The notes: generated by a model from the sequence alone, not told the origin. A stretch of DNA of 64,000 nt from an uncultured Alphaproteobacteria bacterium (GCA_902540655.1 CACBNQ010000003.1:8599-72598), one strand, 5' to 3'; shown: positions 26,492 through 41,355, numbered from the stretch's first letter. Numbers and translations: made by a program.

Positions 26492-27808
26492 TTAAGTGCC
26501 AGGGATCCAGTTGGTTCCGGCTAATGGCACTCCAGCCATTGCAGCCGACTCCACTGTTAAAGCGCATAAATCTTCTGGTTCTAAGTTTCTAAGATCATTT
26601 TTACCACAAGCTCTTGCAATGGTTTGTGCTTCCATAGTCATTACATTAAGGTAATTTGCCAACCGCCTCCCCCCTAGCTTAGGGTCCAAACGCTTAGACA
26701 GTTTTTTATCTTGAGTAGTTATTCCTGCAGGATCGAGACCTTCGTGCCAATCATCAAACGAACCAGCTTTTGTACCTAATTTTTCATAATCTTTCTGATA
26801 CCTAGGATCATTGTCTCCAAGTGCAATCAAAGCAGCAGACCCAATCGATACTGCATCAGCACCTAAAGCCAATGCTTTTGCTACATCAGCACCATTCCTT
26901 ATTCCTCCTGAAATAATGAGCTGTACCTTTCTATGCAAGCCTAATTCCTGCAATGCTCTTACCGCGGGCCTTACACACGCCAGCGTGGGCATACCTACAT
27001 TTTCGATAAATACCTCTTGAGTCGCTGCTGTACCTCCTTGCATTCCGTCGACAACCACGACATCGGCACCAGATTTGGCAGCTAGAGCAACATCATAATA
27101 TGGTCTGGAACCAGCAACTTTTACAAAAATAGGAACCTTCCATCCAGTAATTTCTCTCAACTCTAGTATCTTGATCTCCATATCGTCTGGCCCTGTCCAA
27201 TCAGGATGCCTACATGGTGATCTTTGATCAATTCCTTTTGGCAGCGTTCGCATCTCCGCAACTCTATCATTTATCTTTTGACCAAGTAACATTCCTCCAC
27301 CACCTGGCTTTGCACCCTGACCCACAACGATTTCGATTGCATCAGCCTTTCTAAGGTCATCAGGGTTCATTCCATATCTAGAGGGAAGAAGTTGATAAAC
27401 TAACTGCTTTGAGTGACCTCTTTCCTCTTTTGTCATTCCTCCATCACCTGTTGTTGTTGACGTTCCAACCAAACTAGCACCTCTTCCTAAAGCCTCTTTT
27501 GCTTGTGCGGATAGCGCTCCGAAGCTCATTCCTGCTATAGTAATTGGAATTTCAAGATTAAGAGGATTAGAACTAAATCGGTCACCCAGGATCACTTTTG
27601 TATTGCAAGATTCTCTGTAGCCCTCCAAAGGATACCTAGAAATTGAAGCTCCAAGAAATAATAAATCATCAAAGTTTGGTAAATTTCTTTTAGATCCCCC
27701 TCCCCTTATGTCATATATACCAGTCTCAGCTGCTCTTCTAATTTCAGAGTTTGTATATGCATCGAAAGTATGCGAAGTTCTTGGTTCTGTTATTGATTTC
27801 TTTTTCAC
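26492..27808 (-). CDS. FMN-binding glutamate synthase family protein (GltB central-domain homologue; GlxD/MgsC-like)
   Basis: VGQGAKPGGGG, ISGGIRNGADVAKALALGADAV and an FMN/Fe-S-domain-like TIM-barrel sequence. Confidence 0.85.
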   Translation of the reverse strand: MKKKSITEPRTSHTFDAYTNSEIRRAAETGIYDIRGGGSKRNLPNFDDLLFLGASISRYPLEGYRESCNTKVILGDRFSSNPLNLEIPITIAGMSFGALSAQAKEALGRGASLVGTSTTTGDGGMTKEERGHSKQLVYQLLPSRYGMNPDDLRKADAIEIVVGQGAKPGGGGMLLGQKINDRVAEMRTLPKGIDQRSPCRHPDWTGPDDMEIKILELREITGWKVPIFVKVAGSRPYYDVALAAKSGADVVVVDGMQGGTAATQEVFIENVGMPTLACVRPAVRALQELGLHRKVQLIISGGIRNGADVAKALALGADAVSIGSAALIALGDNDPRYQKDYEKLGTKAGSFDDWHEGLDPAGITTQDKKLSKRLDPKLGGRRLANYLNVMTMEAQTIARACGKNDLRNLEPEDLCALTVESAAMAGVPLAGTNWIPGT

Positions 27809-27817
27809 GTAATTTTC

Positions 27818-28495
27818 CTAATATATTTTAGCATTATCTACATTAAAGTTATAAAGTGAACGAGCAGAGCCAAACCGCCTAAAGGTATCTGGATTATAAT
27901 CAGAAACATTAGCATTTGATAAAATATTTTCTAAATTACTAAGATGCTTTTTTGTCATTTTTTTCTCAATACAATCTGCACCTAAAGAGGCAACTTCACC
28001 GGCGACATATATATTTGCTTCGTATATGCTATCCCCTAAAGCATGTCCAGCATTACCGAAAATAACCAAATTCCCCTTCTGTGCCATGAAGGCAGACATG
28101 TGGCCAACATTTCCCTTCACAATGATGTCTACACCCTTCATTGAAATACCACATCTTGAAGATGCATTTCCTTCGACTAAGATACTTCCTCCATGTCCCG
28201 AAGCTCCTGCATATTGACTTACATCACCGGTAACATGAATGTTACCTGACATCATATTTTCGCCTAACCCTGGGCCAGCTGATCCTTCAACTTTGATATC
28301 AGATAATTTATTCATTCCTGCAAAGTAATATCCAACACTACCAACAACTTTCACAGTAATCTGTTTATTAATACCAACAGCTAACGCGTGGCTTCCTTTT
28401 GGATTTCTAATAGAAAAAAAGCTATTTTTATCAGATCCTTGCAAAGTCTTATTAATGTCTCTCAAGGACAATTTATTAAAATCAAGAATATTCAT
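27818..28495 (-). CDS. GXGXG-motif protein (GltB C-terminal domain homologue; GlxC/MgsB-like)
   Basis: Repeated beta-helix G-x-G-x-G strings (VKVVGSVGYYFAGM, IKVEGSAGPGLGENM, IHVTGDV, ILVEGNA, IIVKGNVGH). ATG 28495 is preferred over the track TTG at 28510. Confidence 0.85.
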   Translation of the reverse strand: MNILDFNKLSLRDINKTLQGSDKNSFFSIRNPKGSHALAVGINKQITVKVVGSVGYYFAGMNKLSDIKVEGSAGPGLGENMMSGNIHVTGDVSQYAGASGHGGSILVEGNASSRCGISMKGVDIIVKGNVGHMSAFMAQKGNLVIFGNAGHALGDSIYEANIYVAGEVASLGADCIEKKMTKKHLSNLENILSNANVSDYNPDTFRRFGSARSLYNFNVDNAKIY

Positions 28496-28497
28496 TT

Positions 28498-29394
28498 TTA
28501 ATGTCCCCAAAAATAAACAGTGGCGGGCTCTGGCTCCCAGACCTTAGCCTTTTCTATTTTTGGTAAAGAGGTTAAGGCTCTATACTCGGACCCAAAAGCT
28601 ACATAATCAGGGGTCTCTGCAAGTACAGCGGGCTTGCAGGCGATCGGATCTCTTAGAACGCCAAAACCGTTTTCCGTACCAACAACGAACGTATAAAAAC
28701 CATCAAGCTCTACAAGTGCGCTTTCCAAAGCTTCTTTAAGCGTTTTTCCACTATTCATTCTGTAAGTAATAAAGCTGGCAGCTACCTCAGAGTCATTTTC
28801 TGTTTCAAAAGTCATCTCTTTTCTCATTAATTCTCTTCGAAGAGAGTTATGATTTGATAGCGACCCATTATGCACCAAACATTGATCTTCACCCGTGGAG
28901 AATGGATGTGCACCAAGTGTTGTAACTTCAGATTCTGTTGCCATACGGGTATGCCCAATACCGTGGGAACCCTTCATTTTAGCTATATCAAATCTTTTTA
29001 CTACTTCAGCAGGCCTGCCTACCTCTTTATAAATTTCCATTTTTTTACCGACACTTAATATTCTCAAATTGGGGAAGGTGTCATTTATTAGATTGATAAC
29101 CTTATCTTTTTGCTTCACGTCAAGCTTTATGACTGCATGTGTGGAATGAGTTTCAAAACTGAATGATATTTCTTTCTTAGTCGATAAAAACTTTTTTAGC
29201 TTTTGAAAATCATCCTCGGGGGACTGAGACTGAACCATTATTTTAGCTCTCTTTGCAATTGGCTTCCCAAAAATCGCTAATCCAGCACTATCGGGACCTC
29301 TATCGCTCATACTTTCAAGCATTTTTGATAGATGAAGTCCTAGATTTGCAGATATATTCTTTTTTTTTGCGTATAGACCAACTATCCCACACAT
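28498..29394 (-). CDS. Class II (Ntn) glutamine amidotransferase-like protein (GltB N-terminal domain homologue; GlxB/MgsA-like)
   Basis: N-terminal MCGIVGL with the catalytic Cys2. HTRMATES and HNGSLSNH blocks. Confidence 0.85.
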   Translation of the reverse strand: MCGIVGLYAKKKNISANLGLHLSKMLESMSDRGPDSAGLAIFGKPIAKRAKIMVQSQSPEDDFQKLKKFLSTKKEISFSFETHSTHAVIKLDVKQKDKVINLINDTFPNLRILSVGKKMEIYKEVGRPAEVVKRFDIAKMKGSHGIGHTRMATESEVTTLGAHPFSTGEDQCLVHNGSLSNHNSLRRELMRKEMTFETENDSEVAASFITYRMNSGKTLKEALESALVELDGFYTFVVGTENGFGVLRDPIACKPAVLAETPDYVAFGSEYRALTSLPKIEKAKVWEPEPATVYFWGH

Positions 29395-32017: not shown

Positions 32018-32632
32018 TTAATCATTATCTATATTGCCAGCCCCTGCTCCCGTTGTTCGAGATAGTTCGCTTTCGGGGACCAGCATATTAGATGCTAGAT
32101 TAGAAAGTTCTTTGAATACATTATCATCTAACAACATTCTTGAGCGTTTAGCTAATGGATTGTTCAGTTCACGATTGTTTAAGCGTATCTCTATATCCTT
32201 GCTACGTCTGTAGTTGTCGTTTTCCCAATTAAGTTGATCATTAAAAAGTGCAGCACATATTTCTTCATTTTTATGGAAACTAAAACTAAAACCACAATAG
32301 TTAGATGCTAGTCCAACCAAAAGCATCGAAGAGTCAATATTTTTCAATATCACACTTTTACAAGCCTCTGAAACAAGCAAATCAATTGCGCTAAGACCTT
32401 CGAAAATTGCTCGTGAATTGCTAAAAATAAGACTTACGCCGTTCTTTTGAGGTGATACGGGTGGGTGCCGTTCACATTTTAGGGAATATAAAAGTTCTTT
32501 GCCACCGGGCAAAGAACGTGACTCTAGAAAGGTAACACCAAACGATAAATCTTCACAGACGCCAGCAGGAAGGTTACTACCCATACTTGCGTTAAATACT
32601 AAGTCTTTAAGCTCCGAAAAAGAAAGATCCAT
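32018..32632 (-). CDS. Hypothetical protein (204 aa), translationally coupled to the upstream 565-aa protein
   Basis: ATG 32632 overlaps the upstream TAA by 1 nt (TAATG). No motif that I can assign. Last gene of the minus-strand operon. Confidence 0.6.
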   Translation of the reverse strand: MDLSFSELKDLVFNASMGSNLPAGVCEDLSFGVTFLESRSLPGGKELLYSLKCERHPPVSPQKNGVSLIFSNSRAIFEGLSAIDLLVSEACKSVILKNIDSSMLLVGLASNYCGFSFSFHKNEEICAALFNDQLNWENDNYRRSKDIEIRLNNRELNNPLAKRSRMLLDDNVFKELSNLASNMLVPESELSRTTGAGAGNIDND

Positions 32633-34329
32633 TAGGAGTATTCAAGTGTAGGCATCCACCAATCGTCATTTTTTTGGTCATTAAGCTCGTTTTTTAGAGG
32701 TGCTCCTTGAAATAAATTTACTCTAACCCATCTGTCTGATTTCGGATCAAATTTGGATGCGCCAAAAAAAGATAATTTACAACGTAGCATATCTATAGGT
32801 TTGCAGTGTTCATCAATTAAATTATCGTGTATTTCGGAGTAAGGAGCCCAAGCATTCGTTTGTATCCTGCGAATAATAAATCGATGTTCAGGGTGTTTCA
32901 TTAAAAATTCTGCTAAGATCATATCACCGTGGAAACTTCCAAGATCGGCATGCAAAAAATACACCCTCCTGGCAATATCTAAAGGCCTTTCTAAATCCTG
33001 CCCTTCCTCTTCATACCTGTTTCCCAATCTTGGCTCCAGCTTTTCTTGTGAAACGTACCAAAATCTTGATTGATTTTCTTTCAAAGAAAAATCTATTTTC
33101 AAAGCCCAAGAGAAGTTCTTTTTTATTAAATTAGCTAACTCATGCACTCTCATTTTAGGGTAGAGCATAGGCAATTTGGTGCTCTCTAAACATAGATCAA
33201 GCCCGTCAATCAGATCTCCACCAACTTCCAAAAACAATGAAACGATAAGCTCTTGGCATTCTGTCGAATAATTTTTTGAAATATTAAAAATATTCTTTAA
33301 AGAATTGATTTTTAACAATTTTTCTAAGGTAAATTCATTTATTATTGATGCCCACTCAGCTTTTAAAACATCAATTCTTTTCTTCTGTCTATCATCGTCA
33401 GTATTCCAAGAGTTAATAAAGACTTTAACTCTAGATGTAAGCTCAATTAATCTTTCGGCCTTTTCCTTAGAAAGCTCTGCTAAATCTACCATCCGCGACA
33501 ATGCAGTTTCACGAACTTGAAACCAATTATTCAATAAGACAGGATGTTTGACCAAAAATGGAGCCATCCCAAGCCCAGTTGCATTACCAATTCCTAGATA
33601 TCTTTGAATTTTTTTATCAAGGGGAACAAATTTTTTAGGGTTACGGGCTTTTGCAACATGATTTACTAAGTCTAGTGAAAAGCCTCTAATCAAGTACACG
33701 GTGAGCATTTCAAGCTGAAACGGTACAGAAAAGTCCGAAAGTTCACAATGATTTTTTCTATCATCAATGCCGAATTTTCCGTTTCCATACACTGCTGTGG
33801 TTCGCATTAAATATCCAATTTTATTTATCAGCTCGCTAGGAGGTTGCATGCCTTCACTTAATGACTGCGCTACCAGCTCAAACATTCTTACAGATTTATT
33901 AGCCCTACTCAGAACTAGCTCTGTATTTTTATATCTACCCGCCTCTTGAAAAGGTAACTGCGTTTTAAGCCTTTCAATATCTGAAATTGATGGAACGCCA
34001 TCAAACAGAGCAAAAGAGGTATCCCAAGCAGATGCAATAACTCTATCAGTCCTTTGTGAAGTCTCTATATGATTAGAAAATGCGATTAAAGCCAGGTTTT
34101 TACCAAAGAGGTTCAATTGATAAACCGCACTACCAAATCCGTTTTCATCCATTTTCCAACGCGAACAACTGATGCGCGTTTTTTGCTGTATCATTTTACG
34201 GATCAATATTCTTGAAAAAGACAGCCTTGATGGATGGATAGACCCCATTCTTTCCAGTTTCATAACCTCAGAAGGCTTTCTAATATTTGGCTGTGGCGCA
34301 CACAACTGTTCTTCTTTTTCTATCACCAA
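32632..34329 (-). CDS. Hypothetical protein (about 565 aa), no recognisable family
   Basis: Long uninterrupted ORF one nucleotide downstream of the M19 dipeptidase stop. Conserved-looking blocks SRANKSVRMFE and GIGNATGLGMAPFLVKHP. No TM segments, Walker motifs or Cys clusters. The start is uncertain (TTG 34329, GTG 34326 or a later ATG). Confidence 0.65.
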   Translation of the reverse strand: MVIEKEEQLCAPQPNIRKPSEVMKLERMGSIHPSRLSFSRILIRKMIQQKTRISCSRWKMDENGFGSAVYQLNLFGKNLALIAFSNHIETSQRTDRVIASAWDTSFALFDGVPSISDIERLKTQLPFQEAGRYKNTELVLSRANKSVRMFELVAQSLSEGMQPPSELINKIGYLMRTTAVYGNGKFGIDDRKNHCELSDFSVPFQLEMLTVYLIRGFSLDLVNHVAKARNPKKFVPLDKKIQRYLGIGNATGLGMAPFLVKHPVLLNNWFQVRETALSRMVDLAELSKEKAERLIELTSRVKVFINSWNTDDDRQKKRIDVLKAEWASIINEFTLEKLLKINSLKNIFNISKNYSTECQELIVSLFLEVGGDLIDGLDLCLESTKLPMLYPKMRVHELANLIKKNFSWALKIDFSLKENQSRFWYVSQEKLEPRLGNRYEEEGQDLERPLDIARRVYFLHADLGSFHGDMILAEFLMKHPEHRFIIRRIQTNAWAPYSEIHDNLIDEHCKPIDMLRCKLSFFGASKFDPKSDRWVRVNLFQGAPLKNELNDQKNDDWWMPTLEYS

Positions 34330-34330
34330 C

Positions 34331-35335
34331 TTATATCTCTTTATTAAAAGAATTTTTAAAAAACTTCATCCAGTTGAGTCCCATAATAGAATTAATTTCA
34401 TCATTATCAAATCCAATATGCTTTAATCCATCCTTAATATTGTTAAAATCTTTGTTTGATTTGAACCAATTAGGCTGAATAGGAAAGCCAGGGTTAGAAG
34501 AATCTCCTTCTCCAAAGTCTTTTGTTTTGGTCCATCTTCCATTTCTCATCCACTCCACGATACTATCAGGCTGATTTTGACAAAGATCACTTCCTATCCC
34601 AATATTTTTTGATCCAAATTTTTCTGCCGTTTTTGCGATCATTTTACAAAAATCTTTAATAGTACAATCACTTCCATTATGTAAATGGTGAGGATAAAGA
34701 GAAAATCCCAGCATACCACCATTTTTAAACATTCGATCTAGAACTTCATCTGACTTATTTCTTAAAGCAGAATGCCAGAAGGCTGGATTAGCATGAGTAA
34801 TTGCAATCGGCCGTGACGAATTATCAATTGCCTCTAAAGTTGACCGATCAGAAGAATGGCTCATGTCAACAACAATCCCAAGCCTATTCATTTCTTTAAT
34901 AACTTCTTTCCCCATTCTTGTTAAGCCAGGGTCATTCTTTTCATAACAACCTGTAGCAAGAAGCGATTGATTATTATAAGAAAGCTGCATAAATCGAACA
35001 CCAAGCTTTTGCCAAACTTCTAACAAAGAAATATCATCTTCTATTGGAGACGGGTTTTGAAAACCAAAAATAATCGCTGTTTTATTATTTTTCTTAGCAG
35101 ATAATATTTCATCATAGCTACTTGCTTGCACTATATACTCCGAATAACTATTGAAATATTCGTTCCATTTCTCAAGGTTTAAAACAGCTTCCCGAAAGTT
35201 TTCATGGTAAGCAATAGTTACGTGGACACAGTCAACTGCACCTTGTCTCATCTGCTCAAAAATTTCCTTAGACCAATTAGCATACTGCAAACAATCTACT
35301 GTAAAATTATTGCTTGTTTCCGAGTCAATAGACAA
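34331..35335 (-). CDS. Membrane (renal-type) dipeptidase family M19 protein
   Basis: Amidohydrolase-fold M19 blocks VDCVHVTI, VDMSHSSDRS, ITHANP and GIGSDL. Confidence 0.8.
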   Translation of the reverse strand: MSIDSETSNNFTVDCLQYANWSKEIFEQMRQGAVDCVHVTIAYHENFREAVLNLEKWNEYFNSYSEYIVQASSYDEILSAKKNNKTAIIFGFQNPSPIEDDISLLEVWQKLGVRFMQLSYNNQSLLATGCYEKNDPGLTRMGKEVIKEMNRLGIVVDMSHSSDRSTLEAIDNSSRPIAITHANPAFWHSALRNKSDEVLDRMFKNGGMLGFSLYPHHLHNGSDCTIKDFCKMIAKTAEKFGSKNIGIGSDLCQNQPDSIVEWMRNGRWTKTKDFGEGDSSNPGFPIQPNWFKSNKDFNNIKDGLKHIGFDNDEINSIMGLNWMKFFKNSFNKEI

Positions 35336-35359
35336 ATCAAATCCCCCTGCTGATATCCT

Positions 35360-36784
35360 TTACTCCATAATAGCTTTAGTCTCTAAGAATTCTTCCAAAC
35401 CCCACTCAGCCTTCTCTCGCCCATTACCCGATTGCTTAAACCCGCCAAATGGTGCATTAGTTCCCCCGCTACCATAATTAATATGGATTTGACCTGCTCT
35501 AATTTGCCTTGCGACACTCCTTAATTTTCTGGGGTCACTACCACATACATAAGCAGAAAGGCCATAACTTGTATCATTCGCAATCTGAACCGCATTATCA
35601 ATATCTTCATATGGGATTACAGATAAGACGGGGCCGAATATTTCTTCTTGTGCAATTTCCATGGAGTTATTTACATCTCCAAAAACAGTTGGCTTAACAA
35701 AATAACCGGCATTAAGCCCTGTAGGCTTGCCTAATCCACCAGTTACTAATTGAGCACCAGCCTTAATCCCAGATTCAATTAACCTTTGTACCTTATCAAA
35801 TTGAGCTTGACTTACTAGAGGACCAATATCTGTGTCTTCTTTTGTAGGGTCACCAGTTTTCAATTTTTCTGCAACATTTTTTGCAATTTCCAAAGCTTCA
35901 TGTTGTCGATTCTTTGGCACTATCATTCGAGTTGGCGCATTACAAGACTGTCCAGTATTCTCCATTATTTTTTGTACACCAACAGTGACCGATTGTTCAA
36001 ACTTTTCATCATCAAAAATTATATTTGGTGATTTTCCTCCAAGTTCCTGACTTACTCTCTTGACCGACTTTGCTGCAGCCTGAGCAACAGCGACCCCTCC
36101 CCTCGTTGAACCAGTAAAAGACATCATGTCTACATCCTTATGGTTGGATAAGGCCTCTCCTACAACCGGACCCAAGCCATGTACCATATTAAAAACTCCT
36201 TTAGGAACTTTTGCAGTATCCATTATTTCAGCAATTATATTAGCTGATATTGGTGATATTTCGCTTGGCTTCAGAATTGCCGTACACCCTGAGGCAAGAC
36301 ACGGTCCAAGCTTCGATATAGTTTGGTTTATTGGCCAATTCCAAGGTGTGATTAGCCCGCATACTCCAATTGGCTCGTGCCTTACAGTATAGCCATTAAA
36401 AGGGTATTCAAATTTATGCTCCTCTAAAACTCTAATTGCTGTCTTTAGATGGTTCATGCCCACAGCAGCTTGTGCACTACGAGAGAGTTTAATCGGCGCT
36501 CCCATTTCTTTTGTTATAGCTTCCACAAAATCCTCAAAGCGATTTTCGAATTGGCTTCTTATTTCTTTCAACAGGTCTAAACGCTCAGCTACACTTGTCC
36601 GTGCATAGCTTGAAAACGCAGCTTTTGCAGCCTCTACTGCCTTGTCAATATCCTGCTGAGAGCCAACGTTTAGTGTCCCAATAACTGATTCATCAGATGG
36701 ATTAATAATATCAATTTTTTCATCCTTTACAGGGAAGACCCATTCGCCATTAATGTAGAATTTAGCTAATTTCATTGATTGCAC
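35360..36784 (-). CDS. NAD(P)-dependent aldehyde dehydrogenase
   Basis: ALDH motifs ITPWNWP, FTGSTRGG, ELGGKSP (catalytic Glu), GQSCNA (catalytic Cys) and EEIFGPV. Confidence 0.9.
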   Translation of the reverse strand: MQSMKLAKFYINGEWVFPVKDEKIDIINPSDESVIGTLNVGSQQDIDKAVEAAKAAFSSYARTSVAERLDLLKEIRSQFENRFEDFVEAITKEMGAPIKLSRSAQAAVGMNHLKTAIRVLEEHKFEYPFNGYTVRHEPIGVCGLITPWNWPINQTISKLGPCLASGCTAILKPSEISPISANIIAEIMDTAKVPKGVFNMVHGLGPVVGEALSNHKDVDMMSFTGSTRGGVAVAQAAAKSVKRVSQELGGKSPNIIFDDEKFEQSVTVGVQKIMENTGQSCNAPTRMIVPKNRQHEALEIAKNVAEKLKTGDPTKEDTDIGPLVSQAQFDKVQRLIESGIKAGAQLVTGGLGKPTGLNAGYFVKPTVFGDVNNSMEIAQEEIFGPVLSVIPYEDIDNAVQIANDTSYGLSAYVCGSDPRKLRSVARQIRAGQIHINYGSGGTNAPFGGFKQSGNGREKAEWGLEEFLETKAIME

Positions 36785-36792
36785 CTTTTCTG

Positions 36793-37395
36793 TTATATAC
36801 CAGCTGGATTATCAATAGATTTGCCGAAGGCTTTTAGATCTGAGTATCGATCACCTATTCTATGATGGGGCCTACCGCATGTAGCAGCTCCGAGAGCACA
36901 CACTATTTCGTCGACATCAGGCGCATCATATATGGAAAACTGAACAGTCAAATAATGTGATCGCCTTCCAGTATCATGCTTATCCATTAATGGTATTTGA
37001 ATTTGTGTATTTGCTGGACCCCTTGTGTTTGTGAAACCTAGGTAACTCTTTGCACCAACCGCTTCCCTATAAAAGTTTCCAAATTGTAAAGTATGAATAA
37101 TAGCCGAAGCATGCTCAATTTCACAACTGGTCCCAGCTAATGCTGCCTTCCCGTATGCTTCAATTTTTTCTCCACTACCAACCATTGAAATCAAACGGTC
37201 GGTCAAAGCTTTTCCCATCACAGGAGCAATTCTTTTAATTTCTGGTTGCAAGTCCTCTACAAACCCCCGACCTTTCCACGGATTAGATAATACTGCAGCA
37301 ACACCTATTATGCGAAGAATAGGATTGGCTTCTTTTCCTCCTTCACTGTATATATCTTCATCAAAGGTTACAATCTTTCTCAGTTCTTTAAGCAT
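36793..37395 (-). CDS. Amino-acid-synthesis (AA_synth/DUF1185) family protein, function unknown
   Basis: Blocks AVLSNPWKGRGFVEDL, IEAYGKAALAGTSCEIEHASAIIH and GRPHHRIGDR match my recollection of the PF06684 family pattern. Confidence 0.7.
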   Translation of the reverse strand: MLKELRKIVTFDEDIYSEGGKEANPILRIIGVAAVLSNPWKGRGFVEDLQPEIKRIAPVMGKALTDRLISMVGSGEKIEAYGKAALAGTSCEIEHASAIIHTLQFGNFYREAVGAKSYLGFTNTRGPANTQIQIPLMDKHDTGRRSHYLTVQFSIYDAPDVDEIVCALGAATCGRPHHRIGDRYSDLKAFGKSIDNPAGI

Positions 37396-37472
37396 CTGGA
37401 GCTCCTATTCTTTTGCAAATAAAGCACGTAGCGATCATTAAAGATACTTTGTAATTAAGTATCAAAAAAATG

Positions 37473-38267
37473 TTAATGTAAATTCAATGATACAAGAAAT
37501 TCATCGATTTTTACAAAAACCTTTTTGTAGTCTTCGACCAATGCCATATGCCTCAAGTTTTGTAAAACACAGACATAGCTATTTTTAAAATTTTTTGCAA
37601 TTTCTTTTGCAGAATTAGGACCATTAGCGAAATCTTGGTCGCACGTTATTATAAGTGTTGGCTTCCTTTCATGTAGCGATTTAAGGTCAATAGATCCGTA
37701 ATATAGTATAGGGTAAACTTTTGAATAAATTTCTTTTCTATTGTTATTTACCCAGTTACGTACAAGTTGGATGATATGAGGATTACTTTTCTGAAAAGGA
37801 ATGCTAAACCATCTTTTTATCGCCGCATCGGTTGTAGACTCTGGGCCCTCGTCTTTCAACAACTTTGCTCTTTCTAAAATTTCATCCCTTTCCTGATCTA
37901 ACAATCGATTTGGTGAATTTAAAAGAACTAGTGCTTCAACTATGCTTGGGTGTAAAGACGCAAATTTTCGAGAAATCATTGATCCCAGAGAAAACCCAAT
38001 AAGTATAAATTTTTCTAATTTAATGTGATTGATTATTTGTAGCAGTTGATCTGCAAACAGGTTTAAAGAAATCTCACCTTCAGGATCTTTACTATCACCA
38101 TGACCAAGAAGATCATATATAAGTACATTATGGTTTTTAAACAATGAAACCTGCCATGACCAGACATCTTGGTTGAGTCCTAAACCATGTATAAAAACAA
38201 TAGTTTTAAACTTAGGATTCTTAAAAAAATATTTAAAGCAGTTTCCGTTAAAATATTGCCTCTTCAT
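37473..38267 (-). CDS. Alpha/beta-fold hydrolase
   Basis: FIHGLGLNQDVW oxyanion region and the nucleophile elbow GFSLGS. Confidence 0.8.
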   Translation of the reverse strand: MKRQYFNGNCFKYFFKNPKFKTIVFIHGLGLNQDVWSWQVSLFKNHNVLIYDLLGHGDSKDPEGEISLNLFADQLLQIINHIKLEKFILIGFSLGSMISRKFASLHPSIVEALVLLNSPNRLLDQERDEILERAKLLKDEGPESTTDAAIKRWFSIPFQKSNPHIIQLVRNWVNNNRKEIYSKVYPILYYGSIDLKSLHERKPTLIITCDQDFANGPNSAKEIAKNFKNSYVCVLQNLRHMALVEDYKKVFVKIDEFLVSLNLH

Positions 38268-38268
38268 T

Positions 38269-38664
38269 TCACGACTCAGGTTTATAAGCTACTACTTCTA
38301 CTTCAACTAAAACATCTACCAAAAGATCGCTGACCACGGCTGATCTAGCAGGTGGATCATGGTCAAAATACTCCCCGTAAATCGAATTAAACCCTGGGAA
38401 GTCTTCTTTATTTTTCAGCCAAACCATAGCTTTAATAACATCCTGTAACTCACATCCAGCCTCTATCAAGGTATTTTTAATTTCATCGAGCACTATTCTT
38501 GTTTGCTCTTCTATAGAACCTTCAGTTATGACCACACCGTTTTTCATAGGAACTTGACCCGTTAAATACACAAAGTCACCAGCTCTAACGGCCTTAGATA
38601 ATGACAGCTTTCGTCCATTAATAATCAATGGATCGCCAATAATTTTTTTAGACATTTTATTCAC
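38269..38664 (-). CDS. RidA/YjgF/UK114 family reactive-intermediate deaminase
   Basis: Size and blocks YLTGQVP, LIEAG and PARSAV..L.....VEVEVVA are typical of the family. Confidence 0.85.
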   Translation of the reverse strand: MNKMSKKIIGDPLIINGRKLSLSKAVRAGDFVYLTGQVPMKNGVVITEGSIEEQTRIVLDEIKNTLIEAGCELQDVIKAMVWLKNKEDFPGFNSIYGEYFDHDPPARSAVVSDLLVDVLVEVEVVAYKPES

Positions 38665-38803
38665 CTATATTGATAGTTAGATTATTCGTAAAAATAACGG
38701 TTGTGAAAATAACTTTTTATTTATTATACAATAAATAGTTATTGTTTTTGATCATTTTTCTCTTGTAAACTTAACGGCGAATAAACAGAAAGTGTGAGCA
38801 AAA

Positions 38804-40285
38804 ATGGGCAGATTAGAAAACTTTAAAATGTTGATTGATGGAGAGTGGGTCTTATCCTCTGATAATAAGACCTTTGAAAGCTCAAATCCCACAACGGGAG
38901 AGAGTTGGTGCACTATACCAGAAGCATCAACAAAGGATGTTAATAGCGCAGTAGAAGCGGCTCACAAAGCATTTATTGATGGACCATGGTCAAAAATGAC
39001 TCCGACAGAAAGAGGAGAGCATCTCAGAAAATTAGCCGATATACTAGCTAGTAAATCTGAGGAATTGGGTAAAATTGAAACCATAGACACCGGGAAAATG
39101 TTAAAGGAAACTAAATGGCAGGCAAAATATATCTCACAATTTTTTAACTTCTTTGCTGGGTGCGCTGATAAAGTCTCTGGTCAAACCTTACCAATTGATA
39201 AACCAGATTTATTTGTATTTACAAACAGAGAGCCACTGGGCGTTGTAGCAGCAATTGTTCCTTGGAATTCCCAATTGTTTCTTGTTGCCGTAAAGATTGG
39301 TCCAGCATTGGCTGCGGGAAATACTATCGTTTTGAAAGCGTCCGAACACGCATCTGCAGCTATGCTTGCTTTTGGTAAATGCGTTGAAGAAGCGGGTATC
39401 CCACCTGGAGTCGTAAATATTATAACAGGCCATGGAGATCCTTGTGGAAAAGAATTAACAAGCCACCCCAAGGTCGCCAGGATTTCGTTTACTGGGGGAC
39501 CAACTTCTGCGCGTCATGTTATTAGAAATTCTGCTGAAAATTTTGCAGAAGTGTCCTTAGAGCTGGGGGGTAAGTCACCTTTTATTGTATTTGATGATGC
39601 GGATATAGAGAACGCAATTAATTGTTCTATAGCTGGAATTTTTGGCGCAACAGGTCAAAGCTGTGTAGCTGGGTCGAGATTATACCTTCAAGAAAATATA
39701 GCAGATGAATTTTTAAGCTTAATTGTTAAGCAGGCAAAAAACATAAAAATTGGAGATCCCTTATTGGACGAAACCCAAATGGGCCCTCTATGCACTAGAG
39801 GCCAACTCGAAAATATTAAAACTGAGCTTGCGTTTGCTGTTGAAGAAGGTGCAACCTTGTTGTGCGGTGGCAAATCGCCCGAAGGTCTTGGTGAATTGTT
39901 TTTCGAGCCAACAATAGTAGACTGCCCTAGTCAGAAACTAAAAATAGTAGATACTGAATTATTTGGACCTGTACTATCCGTAATAAAATTTAAAACTGAA
40001 GAAGAGGTCATATCTCTTGCTAATGATACAAAACATGGTTTGGCAGCAGGCATTTTTTCAAAAAGTAATTCTAGGTGTCTAAGAGTAAGTAAGGCAGTTC
40101 ATGCTGGAATAGTATGGGTTAACACATATAGGGTTGTGTCTCCGATTGCAGAATTTGGAGGATTTAAAAACTCAGGTTATGGTAGAGAAAGTGGTTTTCA
40201 AGCGATATATGACTACACTCGACCTAAAACGGTTTGGATGAATATGTCAGATGAACCGGCAGCTAATCCATTTGTAATGAAATAA
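38804..40285 (+). CDS. NAD(P)-dependent aldehyde dehydrogenase
   Basis: VPWNSQ, FTGGPTSA, ELGGKSP, GQSCVAGSR and ELFGPV. Confidence 0.9.
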   Translation: MGRLENFKMLIDGEWVLSSDNKTFESSNPTTGESWCTIPEASTKDVNSAVEAAHKAFIDGPWSKMTPTERGEHLRKLADILASKSEELGKIETIDTGKMLKETKWQAKYISQFFNFFAGCADKVSGQTLPIDKPDLFVFTNREPLGVVAAIVPWNSQLFLVAVKIGPALAAGNTIVLKASEHASAAMLAFGKCVEEAGIPPGVVNIITGHGDPCGKELTSHPKVARISFTGGPTSARHVIRNSAENFAEVSLELGGKSPFIVFDDADIENAINCSIAGIFGATGQSCVAGSRLYLQENIADEFLSLIVKQAKNIKIGDPLLDETQMGPLCTRGQLENIKTELAFAVEEGATLLCGGKSPEGLGELFFEPTIVDCPSQKLKIVDTELFGPVLSVIKFKTEEEVISLANDTKHGLAAGIFSKSNSRCLRVSKAVHAGIVWVNTYRVVSPIAEFGGFKNSGYGRESGFQAIYDYTRPKTVWMNMSDEPAANPFVMK

Positions 40286-40317
40286 AGGATAAAGGATTTT
40301 TTAGGGGGATAAAGTAT

Positions 40318-41355
40318 ATGAAATTTGATTTAGCAATAAATCTAGAAAGAGCAGACAACTCTTTATCAATGAAGGACGTGAAAAACCATACACTAGAGAT
40401 GGTACAAATGGCTGATCAGAGTGGTTTTAATATTATATGGGCTGCCGAACACCACGCCTTGGAAATGACAATTGCACCAAACCCTTTTCAAATAATTACA
40501 TGGTGGGCAGAAAATACAAACGATGTAAGGCTCGGTACCGCTGTAGCAGCAGCTCCGTACTGGCATCCAATCAAACTTGCTGGAGAGGCTGCTTTCACCG
40601 ACCTAATTACTGAGGGTCGCCTTGAATTTGGTATAGGTTCGGGGGCATACCAACGAGAATTTGATCGAATGCACCCAGGACTAAAGCAATCTGATGCATG
40701 GAAATATATGCAGGAGAGTCTTCCAGTTATCAAGAAGCTATGGGAAGGAGATTATGAGCATAATGGTGAATTTTGGTCTTTCCCATTATCTACGTCTGTT
40801 CCAAAACCTGTGCAAAAAGGTGGTCCCCCTGTATGGGTCGCTGCTAGAGCACCTATAACCTATGACTATGCAGTAAAAAATCATTGCAACATAATGTCTT
40901 GGCCTCTAACTAGACCATTTTCAGAAGCAGAGCTCTATAAACAACGCCTTGATGATGCTTTAGAAAGTGCCTCTAATGGCTTCAAACCTATTTTTGCGAT
41001 GATGAGGCATGCTGCTGTCTATAAAAACAAGGAAGAATCGAGTATCTATGTCAGAGCAATTCAACGTATATTAGGCCAATTTGAAAATTTGTTTAAAAAT
41101 TTAGGTGACGTTAAAGACGGATTTCCCAAGGAAATTGCTTTGAAAGAACTAGAAAATAGGGAAGAATATAATCCAACTATGCTTGAAGAAAATCTACTGT
41201 TTGGAACACCAGACGAGGTTATTAAAAAATTAAAGCGTTATGAAGATCTCGGGGTGGATAATTTTATCTATTACGCATCGATGGGGTTGGATCATGGTTC
41301 ACAGAAGAGATCACTAGAGTTGTTCTGTGAAGAAGTCCTTCCTGCTTTTCAATAG
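40318..41355 (+). CDS. LLM-class (luciferase-like) flavin-dependent oxidoreductase
   Basis: TIM-barrel LLM pattern: AAEHHAL, RLGTAV, GRLEFGIGSG, and a C-terminal GVDNFI... Confidence 0.75.
   Translation: MKFDLAINLERADNSLSMKDVKNHTLEMVQMADQSGFNIIWAAEHHALEMTIAPNPFQIITWWAENTNDVRLGTAVAAAPYWHPIKLAGEAAFTDLITEGRLEFGIGSGAYQREFDRMHPGLKQSDAWKYMQESLPVIKKLWEGDYEHNGEFWSFPLSTSVPKPVQKGGPPVWVAARAPITYDYAVKNHCNIMSWPLTRPFSEAELYKQRLDDALESASNGFKPIFAMMRHAAVYKNKEESSIYVRAIQRILGQFENLFKNLGDVKDGFPKEIALKELENREEYNPTMLEENLLFGTPDEVIKKLKRYEDLGVDNFIYYASMGLDHGSQKRSLELFCEEVLPAFQ

What the first reader, a model, noticed from the sequence alone, without database searches (positions are those of the whole stretch)
32018..38664. 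Seven-gene operon combining RidA, alpha/beta hydrolase, AA_synth, ALDH and an M19 dipeptidase: a pathway with at least three unknown-function components
The minus-strand gene order is RidA, alpha/beta hydrolase, AA_synth (DUF1185) family, aldehyde dehydrogenase, M19 dipeptidase, 565 aa, 204 aa. Gaps are 1, 77, 8, 24, 1 and -1 nt. Known family properties frame the chemistry: RidA quenches enamine/imine intermediates, M19 enzymes open dipeptides and some lactams, and the AA_synth family has no established function. By inference the logic (hydrolytic ring or amide opening, then an imine or aldehyde intermediate, then an acid) fits degradation of a cyclic or N-acylated amino compound. The operon shares a 139-nt divergent control region with the ALDH-LLM-carnitine operon, so the two may form a single regulon.
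Basis: partly seen in the sequence, partly recalled or inferred. Interest (0 to 1): 0.62.

Follow-up and report, generated by a model that had tools for sequence, protein, structure and literature searches.

The report
Mosaic homarine plus trigonelline-like breakdown operon
The seven genes form a real, expressed operon of an uncultured ocean bacterium, but it is two already described kinds of breakdown module for algal pyridinium betaines (homarine-type and trigonelline-type) joined together, so it is a new variant rather than an unknown pathway.

Summary
Fourteen related single-cell or metagenome genomes keep the same layout. Marine metatranscriptome contigs span all six junctions.

The "single unknown pathway" reading is only partly right, because comparative genomics splits the operon in two.

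- Distal part: ALDH, M19-like, 565 aa, DUF3726. This has the homD-homC-homB-homA layout of the homarine catabolic operon (Nat Microbiol 2026). HomE, HomT and HomR are absent here, and the ALDH is a non-orthologous type.
- Proximal part: RidA, alpha/beta hydrolase, AA_synth (the TgnF family). Together with the divergent ALDH and LLM monooxygenase, it forms a trigonelline-type (tgn-like) enzyme set. That set, with the carnitine-type genes, is conserved as one unit on plasmids of Parasedimentitalea and Aminobacter that carry no hom genes. In those plasmids a flavin reductase gene sits where the window has only the 77-nt gap.

Still open: the chemistry of HomA/HomB (a confident model has no fold match in the PDB), the true substrate of this tgn-like branch (LLM only 39% identical to canonical clusters), and whether RidA replaces HomE. 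Verdict: a new variant of known systems, of moderate interest.

The parts
38269..38664 (-). RidA-family protein (131 aa). First gene of the operon. Proposed to speed hydrolysis of the N-methyl enamine/imine intermediates left after deformylation.
   Evidence: Pfam Ribonuc_L-PSP 2e-28. TIGR00004 scores 94 bits, below its cut-off of 106; RutC scores 58 against 169. The sequence has a PARS motif with the carboxylate-binding Arg (the motif is recalled from E. coli RidA). It is 67% identical to the RidA beside the ABH in L057 and L058, and to a RidA near homCBA in L052.
37473..38267 (-). Alpha/beta hydrolase (264 aa) in the TgnD position. Proposed hydrolase for an N-formyl or N-acyl enamine ring-opening product.
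   Evidence: Abhydrolase_1 2.5e-26. Best NCBIfam models are PcaD-type and RutD, all far below cut-off. GFSLG nucleophile elbow plus Asp and His candidates are present. Identity is 38-42% to the ABH of L057/L058 and 22-30% to the ABH of canonical tgn-type clusters.
37396..37472 (-). 77-nt intergenic gap. It lies where relatives carry a flavin reductase gene or a CoA-transferase::flavin-reductase fusion gene.
   Evidence: L058 has a Flavin_Reduct protein (326 aa) and L057 a CoA_transf_3+Flavin_Reduct protein (707 aa) between ABH and AA_synth. The gap is 77-82 nt in most of the clade, 257 nt in L008. A metatranscriptome contig spans 37178-37504.
36793..37395 (-). AA_synth / DUF1185 protein (200 aa) of the TgnF family. 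Proposed helper of the adjacent aldehyde dehydrogenase.
   Evidence: PF06684 1.2e-66. Identity is 75% to L057/L058 and 60-63% to the AA_synth of the A. junii and S. meliloti pSymA tgn-type clusters. TgnF is a DUF1185 protein that stimulates TgnE (PMC7913881). PDB relatives are 2qtp and 3byq.
35360..36784 (-). Aldehyde dehydrogenase ALDH1 (474 aa). It sits in the HomD position but belongs to another ALDH subfamily, and it may also serve as the TgnE-like semialdehyde dehydrogenase.
   Evidence: Aldedh 6e-152, with no NCBIfam equivalog reached. Orthologues at 64-65% identity lie next to, and divergent from, homC-homB-homA-Ldh_2 in L022, L024, L029 and L049. Identity is only about 30% to the ALDH upstream of M19 in Aminobacter, Phaeobacter and Gordonia, and 34% to the SSADH of tgn clusters.
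34331..35335 (-). M19-like amidohydrolase (334 aa), the HomC equivalent. Its metal site is degenerate. Proposed deformylase or amidohydrolase acting on the ring-opened product.
   Evidence: Peptidase_M19 9e-74. Best PDB hit is 2i5g 'amidohydrolase', 3.5e-57. In the alignment to GliJ the bridging Glu (GIEG) is Gln (GFQN), while both His and the Asp are kept. The N-terminus reads VDCLQY where M19 enzymes have IDGHND (the canonical motif is from memory). Identity is 58-64% to the M19 gene of all hom-type loci.
32632..34329 (-). 565-aa protein with no curated family, the HomB equivalent. Presumed catalytic subunit of the homarine ring-opening step.
   Evidence: No Pfam or NCBIfam hit. More than 8000 homologues exist, all named 'hypothetical'. 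A profile search finds no PDB sequence match. The AlphaFold model has pLDDT 86.7 and pTM 0.89. Foldseek against the PDB gives a best E of 0.28 and TM scores of 0.12 or less. The protein always sits beside the M19 and DUF3726 genes.
32018..32632 (-). 204-aa DUF3726 protein, the HomA equivalent. Its start overlaps the homB stop by 1 nt. Presumed partner subunit of HomB.
   Evidence: DUF3726 1e-05. The alignment shows an invariant C-terminal SR..GAGAG..DND tail. A profile search finds no PDB match. It is fused to HomB in L056 (839 aa, DUF3726 at residues 626-695). Phaeobacter annotates the same position as a 'DUF3726 domain-containing protein'.
38665..38803 (.). 139-nt divergent control region shared with the ALDH2-LLM-carnitine-type operon. 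It holds a conserved palindrome at 38708-38743.
   Evidence: Promoter-like hexamers occur on both strands. There is an inverted repeat with 14-nt arms, 93% complementary. The region is 92% identical across seven clade genomes. The palindrome is unique in the window.
38804..41355 (+). ALDH2 (TgnC-like) and LLM monooxygenase (TgnB-like). These are the upper half of the tgn-like module, transcribed divergently as the first two genes of the carnitine-type operon.
   Evidence: Pfam Aldedh and Bac_luciferase. Identity is 72-75% and 70% to L057/L058, where they face RidA-ABH-Fre-AA_synth. ALDH2 is 52-54% and LLM 39% identical to the A. junii and S. meliloti tgn-type clusters. TgnB is an LLM (PMC11354265).

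Best explanation
The operon is a lineage-specific fusion of two catabolic modules for phytoplankton N-methylpyridinium betaines.

Module 1 is the last four genes: ALDH1, M19-like, 565 aa, DUF3726. It is a reduced homarine (N-methylpicolinate) module laid out as homD-homC-homB-homA.
- HomB/HomA open the ring. This is inferred, and the chemistry is unknown.
- The ALDH oxidises the ring-opened aldehyde to the acid.
- The metal-degenerate M19 amidohydrolase removes the N-formyl group.
- HomE, an Ldh_2-type enzyme of the imine-reductase kind, is missing. The resulting N-methyl-2-imino/enamino-glutarate is therefore probably hydrolysed to 2-oxoglutarate and methylamine, helped by the operon's RidA, rather than reduced to N-methylglutamate. 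This step is inferred.

Module 2 is the first three genes: RidA, alpha/beta hydrolase, AA_synth. It is the lower half of a trigonelline-type pathway.
- The upper half lies across the 139-nt divergent promoter: an LLM oxygenase (TgnB-like) and ALDH2 (TgnC-like).
- The proposed sequence is flavin-dependent ring cleavage, oxidation, hydrolysis of the N-formyl enamine by the hydrolase, and RidA-assisted imine hydrolysis that releases methylamine.
- A semialdehyde would then be oxidised by an ALDH assisted by the TgnF-like AA_synth protein.

Shown here: the gene families, the module boundaries, the conservation, and transcription across all junctions. Inferred: every chemical step, the substrates in this organism, and the role of RidA.
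For: For module 1:
- The trio M19-565aa-DUF3726 is the conserved core in 50 or more loci from Alpha- and Gammaproteobacteria and from Gordonia, with or without an upstream ALDH and a betaine transporter.
- Phaeobacter inhibens pP54_a carries LysR | ALDH-M19-BCCT-563aa-DUF3726-Ldh_2. L056 and L028 have the same order. This reproduces the R-D-C-T-B-A-E order of Cobetia ACFLL8_11520..11490, with the transporter between homC and homB (PMC13236597).
- The paper's description fits these proteins. HomC is a peptidase and HomD (SPO3191) is an aldehyde dehydrogenase. HomA and HomB HMMs have almost no off-target hits. HomB E-values reach 1e-240, which implies a long protein, and HomA reaches 1e-57, which implies a short one. 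SPO3188 is annotated as a 'hypothetical protein'.
- HomB is fused to HomA in L056, which agrees with the heterodimer the paper predicts.

For module 2:
- The best plasmid hits for LLM and for AA_synth fall in the same two records. Both records carry RidA-ABH-(Fre)-AA_synth facing ALDH-LLM-CaiD-HCDH-BKACE-ACAD-ACS, at 59-76% identity (ABH 38-42%, ACS 40-48%), and have no hom genes.
- Canonical clusters with the six Tgn families occur in A. junii, S. meliloti pSymA, R. phaseoli and A. fabrum.
- TgnB is an LLM and TgnF is a DUF1185 protein that helps TgnE.

For the operon as a unit:
- Fourteen genomes share the layout.
- There is no internal terminator above chance.
- Metatranscriptome contigs cross every junction.

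For RidA standing in for HomE:
- Gordonia (L028) has a RidA gene directly after homA, where others have Ldh_2.
- L052 has a RidA 67% identical to the window's, 2.6 kb from homC.
Against: - I could not obtain the R. pomeroyi SPO3188-3191, Cobetia or A. baylyi TgnA-F sequences. Both assignments therefore rest on architecture and family, not on direct orthology.
- ALDH1 is only about 30% identical to the ALDH in the HomD position of canonical hom loci.
- The window's LLM and ABH are only 39% and 22-25% identical to those of canonical tgn-type clusters, so the substrate of module 2 may not be trigonelline.
- No flavin reductase is encoded in the window.
- In relatives a CoA-transferase::flavin-reductase fusion ties the tgn-like genes to the CoA-dependent carnitine-type genes. 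That hints at one different pathway.
- The paper says HomA has FAD-binding motifs. I see only a GAGAG tail.
- Metatranscriptome contigs can contain DNA and reads from close relatives.
Confidence: 0.62

Rival explanations
1. All seven proteins, perhaps together with the divergent operon, act in sequence on one unidentified substrate.
For: The seven genes are co-transcribed and tightly packed. The layout is fixed in 14 genomes. The boundary between the two modules is only 8 nt, between AA_synth and ALDH1, while the largest gap (77 nt) lies inside module 2.
Against: The two halves occur independently in many taxa. homCBA is found without RidA, ABH or AA_synth in about 40 loci. RidA-ABH-AA_synth is found without hom genes in L057 and L058. 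The seven-gene combination is confined to one clade.
Confidence: 0.12
2. RidA-ABH-AA_synth, ALDH2-LLM and the carnitine-type CoA enzymes together form one separate pathway, a sister of tgn, for a third unidentified plankton betaine or heterocycle. It would not be trigonelline. The hom genes were merely appended to that operon.
For: The ten-gene set is conserved as a unit in three distant lineages at 59-76% identity. The CoA_transf_3::Flavin_Reduct fusion in L057 physically links the two chemistries. LLM and ABH are far from canonical tgn proteins, at 39% and 22-25% identity. This type uses a PotD-like ABC transporter instead of ProX or NCS1.
Against: ALDH2 and AA_synth are fairly close to canonical tgn proteins, at 52-63% identity. 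Carnitine and gamma-butyrobetaine catabolism alone explains the CoA genes: their best NCBIfam matches are crotonobetainyl-CoA hydratase and L-carnitine dehydrogenase, though below cut-off. No candidate substrate has been identified.
Confidence: 0.3
3. The M19-565aa-DUF3726 trio is not specific for homarine. It would serve another methylated-amine pathway, such as dimethylglycine or another betaine, like the PA5396-PA5397 genes of the Pseudomonas dgc operon.
For: The best solved relative of the M19 protein is the 2i5g amidohydrolase, which earlier notes of this scan link to PA5396. PA5396 (putative dipeptidase) and PA5397 precede dgcAB, and their disruption gives the dgc phenotype (PMC13492115; Vibrio). 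The trio appears in varied contexts, including an Opp transporter with AlaDh in L002 and D-amino-acid genes in L001.
Against: The dgc operons are described with two genes, a dipeptidase and a small hypothetical, and no 565-aa partner is mentioned. Knock-outs of homB, homC and homD abolish growth on homarine in R. pomeroyi. The full R-D-C-T-B-A-E layout is reproduced in Phaeobacter.
Confidence: 0.1

Closest known systems
homABCDER(+homT) homarine catabolic operon of Cobetia sp. OBi1 and Ruegeria pomeroyi DSS-3 (Ferrer-Gonzalez et al., Nat Microbiol 2026, PMC13236597)
   Same: The window has an adjacent, translationally coupled long orphan protein and short DUF3726 protein. They are preceded by an M19-type 'peptidase' and an aldehyde dehydrogenase, in the same order. 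The setting is a marine alphaproteobacterium, and a betaine ABC transporter lies nearby in the window. The paper also reports that most Alphaproteobacteria lack homE.
   Different: There is no homR, homT or homE. The ALDH belongs to another subfamily, about 30% identical to the ALDH in that position of canonical loci. The genes are fused downstream of RidA-ABH-AA_synth in one operon. The end product here may be 2-oxoglutarate plus methylamine instead of N-methylglutamate (inferred).
Trigonelline catabolic cluster tgnABCDEF of Acinetobacter baylyi ADP1 (Perchat et al. 2018 PNAS; the paper is not held, so details are from memory plus PMC7913881 and PMC11354265), and the same cluster type on S. 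meliloti pSymA and an A. junii plasmid
   Same: The enzyme families match: LLM oxygenase, ALDH, alpha/beta hydrolase, DUF1185/AA_synth helper and a second ALDH. The AA_synth gene is adjacent to an ALDH. A betaine-type transporter is nearby.
   Different: The set is split over two divergent operons. There is no flavin reductase gene. A RidA gene is added. LLM and ABH are only 39% and 22-25% identical. The upper-half genes are co-transcribed with carnitine-type CoA enzymes. The substrate is unproven.
Rut pyrimidine pathway (RutA LLM, RutF reductase, RutC RidA-family, RutD alpha/beta hydrolase)
   Same: It shows the same logic: an LLM oxygenase opens an N-heterocycle, and a RidA-family protein and an alpha/beta hydrolase then deal with the enamine/imine products. 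RidA and ABH are adjacent, as rutC and rutD are.
   Different: The RutC and RutD models score far below their cut-offs (58 against 169 bits, and 63 against 238 bits). There is no RutB or RutE. ALDH and DUF1185 are present instead.
PA5396-PA5397 of the Pseudomonas aeruginosa dgc (dimethylglycine) operon; PDB 2i5g
   Same: An M19-like protein with a degenerate metal site sits next to a small hypothetical protein in a methylated-amine catabolic operon. 2i5g is the best solved relative of the M19 protein (3.5e-57).
   Different: The window has the 565-aa HomB-type partner and no dgcAB.

Membership tests
hom (homarine) operon | A long orphan protein (HomB) adjacent to a short orphan protein (HomA) | tested here: met
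   The 565-aa and 204-aa genes overlap by 1 nt. The same pair occurs in Phaeobacter, Aminobacter, Gordonia and others, and the two are fused in L056. The sizes and specificity fit the paper's HMM statistics.
hom (homarine) operon | HomC peptidase-type gene next to homB | tested here: met
   The M19-like gene lies 1 nt upstream of the 565-aa gene. It is 58-64% identical to the M19 gene in all hom-type loci.
hom (homarine) operon | HomD aldehyde dehydrogenase orthologue | tested here: inconclusive
   An ALDH sits in the HomD position, 24 nt upstream. It is only about 30% identical to the ALDH of the Phaeobacter, Aminobacter and Gordonia loci. Its 64-65% orthologues flank homCBA in L022, L024, L029 and L049.
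hom (homarine) operon | Regulator homR, with transporter homT and auxiliary homE as optional parts | tested here: not met
   No LysR, BCCT or Ldh_2 gene lies in or beside the operon. The paper treats homE as optional and says it is mostly absent in Alphaproteobacteria.
hom (homarine) operon | Direct orthology to SPO3188-3191 / ACFLL8_11495-11515, and growth on homarine | not testable with these tools
   The reference sequences could not be reached. The organism is uncultured.
tgn (trigonelline) cluster | Two-component oxygenase: LLM (TgnB) plus flavin reductase (TgnA) | tested here: inconclusive
   An LLM is present but is 39% identical to the LLM of the A. junii and S. meliloti clusters. No Flavin_Reduct gene is in the window. 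Relatives have one where the window has the 77-nt gap.
tgn (trigonelline) cluster | TgnC-type ALDH next to the LLM | tested here: met
   ALDH2 lies immediately upstream of the LLM and is 52-54% identical to the ALDH of canonical clusters.
tgn (trigonelline) cluster | TgnD hydrolase | tested here: inconclusive
   An alpha/beta hydrolase is present with Ser, Asp and His candidates, but it is only 22-30% identical to the ABH of canonical clusters.
tgn (trigonelline) cluster | TgnF DUF1185 protein with a TgnE semialdehyde dehydrogenase | tested here: inconclusive
   AA_synth is 60-63% identical to the cluster proteins, so that part is met. The adjacent ALDH1 is only 34% identical to the cluster SSADH.
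Rut pathway | RutC and RutD equivalogs | tested here: not met
   TIGR03610 scores 58 bits against a cut-off of 169, and TIGR03611 scores 63 bits against 238.5.
M19 binuclear-zinc dipeptidase | The full metal-ligand set: HxD, bridging Glu and two His | tested here: not met
   In the alignment to GliJ the bridging Glu is Gln, and both His and the Asp are kept. The N-terminus reads VDCLQY, as 2i5g reads IDGLII. That the canonical motif is IDGHND is from memory.
Archetypal RidA | TIGR00004 membership and the Arg that binds the 2-imino-acid carboxylate | tested here: inconclusive
   The protein scores 94.3 bits against a cut-off of 106.25. An Arg is present in a PARS motif, and its equivalence to E. 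coli R105 is from memory.

The most novel reading that the evidence does not exclude
This clade has wired the two pyridinium-betaine routes into one transcription unit that shares RidA, AA_synth and ALDH1.

Under this reading, homarine breakdown ends hydrolytically, with RidA in place of the imine reductase HomE. The products would be 2-oxoglutarate and methylamine, with the neighbouring N-methylglutamate-synthase-like genes handling the methylamine.

The reductase-less tgn-like branch, coupled to the carnitine-type CoA enzymes, would degrade a third abundant plankton metabolite that is not yet identified, using a ring-opening oxygenase lineage distinct from TgnB.
Probability: 0.25. Interest if true: 0.6.

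Novelty: new variant of a known kind. Interest (0 to 1): 0.4.

Why it matters
Homarine and trigonelline are among the most abundant small nitrogen metabolites released by phytoplankton. This locus suggests that a streamlined, uncultured surface-ocean alphaproteobacterium packs their breakdown genes, together with carnitine-type and betaine-uptake genes, around one conserved control region with no local regulator.

The finding has three practical uses.
- It gives a natural minimal version of the hom module, without HomE, HomT or HomR and with a different ALDH. This can show which parts are essential.
- It offers a testable idea for an alternative hydrolytic exit through RidA.
- It flags a tgn-like enzyme branch whose substrate is unknown.

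The enzymology of HomA/HomB remains open. A confident model has no fold match in the PDB.

Tried and rejected
Reference sequences I could not reach:
A second protein search with the Phaeobacter HomB did not list R. pomeroyi among its best 120 hits. The paper's supplements are not held.
- Perchat 2018. The paper is held neither by DOI nor by PMC id.

Searches that found nothing useful:
- Literature searches for DUF3726, PF06684 and the TgnC-F names gave nothing further.
- NCBIfam has no model for the AA_synth, M19-like, HomB or HomA proteins, and no equivalog for the LLM or either ALDH.
- Profile searches of HomA and HomB against PDB sequences gave only chance-level hits.
- The Foldseek search with the HomB model gave no significant match.

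Readings I rejected:
- Rut pathway membership: scores are far below the cut-offs.
- A canonical dipeptidase function for the M19 protein: metal ligands are lost.
- PcaD enol-lactonase: 122 bits against a cut-off of 256.

What I did not use as evidence:
- The promoter and terminator scan was at chance level and counts only as the absence of an obvious internal terminator.
- Contig depth looked lower over RidA-ABH than over the rest in all four metatranscriptomes. Contig depth is unreliable and relatives contribute to it, so I draw no conclusion about an internal promoter.

Full report
**Observation.** The ORF list shows seven consecutive minus-strand ORFs:

| Gene | Coordinates |
|---|---|
| RidA | 38269-38664 |
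| ABH | 37473-38267 |
| AA_synth | 36793-37395 |
| ALDH1 | 35360-36784 |
| M19 | 34331-35335 |
| 565-aa protein | 32632-34329 |
| 204-aa protein | 32018-32632 |

- The gaps are 1, 77, 8, 24, 1 and -1 nt, and 139 nt separate the operon from the divergent ALDH at 38804.
- Pfam confirms the stated families. The 204-aa protein also has a weak DUF3726 match, and the 565-aa protein has none. NCBIfam assigns no equivalog to any of the seven.
- The window has about 36% G+C. Its closest relatives are uncultured marine Alphaproteobacteria single-cell genomes. One MAG of the clade is labelled Rhodobacteraceae MED-G56.

**Is it an operon?**
- Fourteen related genomes keep the same order and almost the same spacing.
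- No terminator-like site above chance lies inside it.
- Contigs from four marine metatranscriptomes cover the whole stretch. Individual contigs cross each of the six junctions, for example 35297-35578 (M19/ALDH1), 37178-37504 (the 77-nt gap) and 37971-38385 (ABH/RidA).
- Two caveats apply. Such contigs may include DNA or close relatives, and contig depth is not a measure of expression.

**The distal half is a hom module.**
- The 565-aa protein belongs to a very large family, with more than 8000 hits, all named "hypothetical".
- In Sneathiella, Granulosicoccus and about 50 genome loci the invariant neighbours are the M19-like gene upstream and a DUF3726 gene downstream. An ALDH upstream and a ProXWV or BCCT transporter are often present too.
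- A 2026 paper defines the homarine catabolic operon homABCDER (PMC13236597). HomC is a predicted peptidase and HomD (SPO3191) is an aldehyde dehydrogenase. HomA and HomB are adjacent in 97.7% of genomes and are predicted to form a heterodimer.
- That paper's HomA and HomB HMMs have almost no off-target hits. HomB E-values reach 1e-240 and HomA only 1e-57. In Cobetia a betaine transporter lies between homB and homC. SPO3188 is annotated as a "hypothetical protein".
- The Phaeobacter inhibens plasmid pP54_a shows LysR | ALDH - membrane dipeptidase - BCCT - 563-aa hypothetical - DUF3726 - Ldh oxidoreductase. That is the Cobetia R-D-C-T-B-A-E layout. L056 and Gordonia L028 have the same order.
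- In L056, HomB and HomA are fused.
- I therefore map DUF3726 to HomA, the 565-aa protein to HomB, M19 to HomC, the upstream ALDH to the HomD position, and Ldh_2 to HomE.
- I could not fetch the reference sequences, so the mapping rests on architecture, not on direct orthology.

**Peculiarities of the hom module here.**
- There is no Ldh_2, BCCT or LysR gene.
- ALDH1 is only about 30% identical to the ALDH in that position in Phaeobacter, Aminobacter and Gordonia. Its 64-65% orthologues lie beside homC-homB-homA-Ldh_2, divergently transcribed, in four other marine loci. It looks like a non-orthologous HomD replacement.
- The M19 protein's best solved relative is 2i5g (3.5e-57). In the alignment to GliJ the bridging Glu is Gln, while the two His and the Asp are kept. 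The N-terminus lacks the HxD motif.
- HomB gives a confident AlphaFold model (pLDDT 86.7, pTM 0.89). It has no Foldseek match in the PDB (best E 0.28) and no PDB sequence match.
- HomA has an invariant SR..GAGAG..DND tail and no PDB relative.

**The proximal half belongs to a tgn-like set.**
- tblastn of the LLM (40318-41355) and of AA_synth against plasmids puts the best hits of both in the same two records.
- Parasedimentitalea marina pW43B and Aminobacter sp. SR38 pSR3 carry RidA-ABH-X-AA_synth facing ALDH-LLM-CaiD-HCDH-(GlxA regulator)-BKACE-ABC transporter-ACAD-ADP-forming CoA ligase. Identity to the window proteins is 59-76%, with ABH at 38-42% and ACS at 40-48%. Neither has hom genes or ALDH1.
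- X is a flavin reductase in Aminobacter and a CoA_transf_3::Flavin_Reduct fusion in Parasedimentitalea. The window has only the 77-nt gap at that place.
- Canonical clusters hold the six families together: flavin reductase, LLM, ALDH, ABH, AA_synth and SSADH. They occur on the A. fabrum At plasmid, on R. phaseoli plasmids, on S. meliloti pSymA next to nod genes, and on an A. junii plasmid.
- The literature held here states that TgnB is an LLM. It also states that TgnF is a DUF1185 protein that stimulates the SSA dehydrogenase TgnE. The other Tgn assignments, and the S. meliloti trc locus, are from my memory of Perchat 2018 and Boivin 1990.
- Against canonical clusters the window proteins show AA_synth 60-63%, ALDH2 52-54%, LLM 39% and ABH 22-25% identity. 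The window set is therefore a distinct branch. It works like Tgn, but its substrate is not established.

**Proposed mechanism (inferred).**
- *Homarine route.* HomAB open the ring. ALDH1 oxidises the aldehyde to the C7H9NO5 acid seen in the paper's metabolomes. HomC removes formate to give the C6H9NO4 N-methyl enamine/imine. Where HomE (Ldh_2) is present this is reduced to N-methylglutamate. Here, without HomE, RidA-assisted hydrolysis would give 2-oxoglutarate and methylamine.
- *Support for the RidA exit.* Gordonia has a RidA gene exactly where others have Ldh_2. The window RidA keeps the Arg of the PARS motif.
- *tgn-like route.* The LLM, with an unlinked reductase, and ALDH2 would open and oxidise a pyridinium ring. 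The ABH would hydrolyse the N-formyl enamine. RidA would speed imine hydrolysis. AA_synth would assist an ALDH on the resulting semialdehyde.
- *Methylamine.* The mgsABC-like genes at 26492-29394 could take up the methylamine.

**Rivals.** The Rival explanations section sets these out with evidence for and against each. In brief:
- One single pathway for one substrate. This is unlikely because the modules occur apart.
- A third-substrate pathway that unites the tgn-like and carnitine-type genes. This is plausible, given the CoA-transferase::reductase fusion and the low LLM and ABH identity.
- A non-homarine role for the trio, as in the Pseudomonas dgc operon. This is less likely.

**Earlier notes of this scan.** reached similar hom and tgn-sister readings in other genomes. 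I treated them as leads and re-derived the evidence here.

**Verdict.** Both halves belong to kinds of system already described in 2018 and 2026. What is new is:
- their fusion into one operon;
- the loss of homE, homT, homR and the flavin reductase;
- the different ALDH;
- the added RidA.

Novelty: a new variant of a known kind. Interest: 0.4.

Noticed in passing
window 38708-38743: An inverted repeat with 14-nt arms (AATAACTTTTTATT / AATAAATAGTTATT, 8 nt apart) lies in the middle of the 139-nt divergent control region. It is unique in the window, and the region is 92% identical across seven clade genomes. It is a candidate operator, yet no regulator gene lies in the locus.
   Followed up: partly
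window 37396-37472, compared with L057:14200-16323 and L058:11831-12811: The 77-nt gap sits where relatives encode a flavin reductase or a CoA-transferase::flavin-reductase fusion. This clade has apparently lost that gene, which leaves the LLM without a linked reductase.
   Followed up: partly
L056:6607-9126: There is an apparent HomB::HomA fusion protein of 839 aa, with DUF3726 at residues 626-695. This is a Rosetta-stone hint that the two proteins act as one enzyme.
   Followed up: partly
L028:12356-12715 (Gordonia sp.) and L052:5737-6264: RidA-family genes recur next to hom genes outside this clade. In Gordonia the RidA gene lies directly after homA, where other loci have Ldh_2. In L052 the RidA is 67% identical to the window's.
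   Followed up: partly
S. meliloti pSymB, hits H75-H89 (e.g. NC_020560.1 397157-398809): A paralogous family about 28-30% identical to HomB over its full length is present on pSymB of many Sinorhizobium strains. It may be a HomB-like enzyme for another substrate. The record I opened had no annotation.
   Followed up: no
L012 and L013 compared with the window: Within the clade HomB and HomA diverge much faster (79-81% and 70-73% identity) than the neighbouring AA_synth, ALDH1 and tgn-like genes (91-98%).
   Followed up: no
L049:9950-11666: HomB is split into two ORFs (218 and 360 aa) in one single-cell genome. This is either a frameshift or pseudogene, or a sequencing error.
   Followed up: no
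window 26492-29394: Three genes resembling N-methylglutamate synthase (amidotransferase, GXGXG and glutamate-synthase FMN domains) lie 2.6 kb downstream of the operon. This fits methylamine or N-methylglutamate as the shared product of both betaine routes.
   Followed up: partly
window 37289-38239: In all four metatranscriptomes the contig depth over ABH and part of RidA (0-7) is lower than over AA_synth through DUF3726 (about 5-38). This could mean an internal promoter upstream of AA_synth, or it could be extra reads from relatives that carry only hom genes.
   Followed up: no
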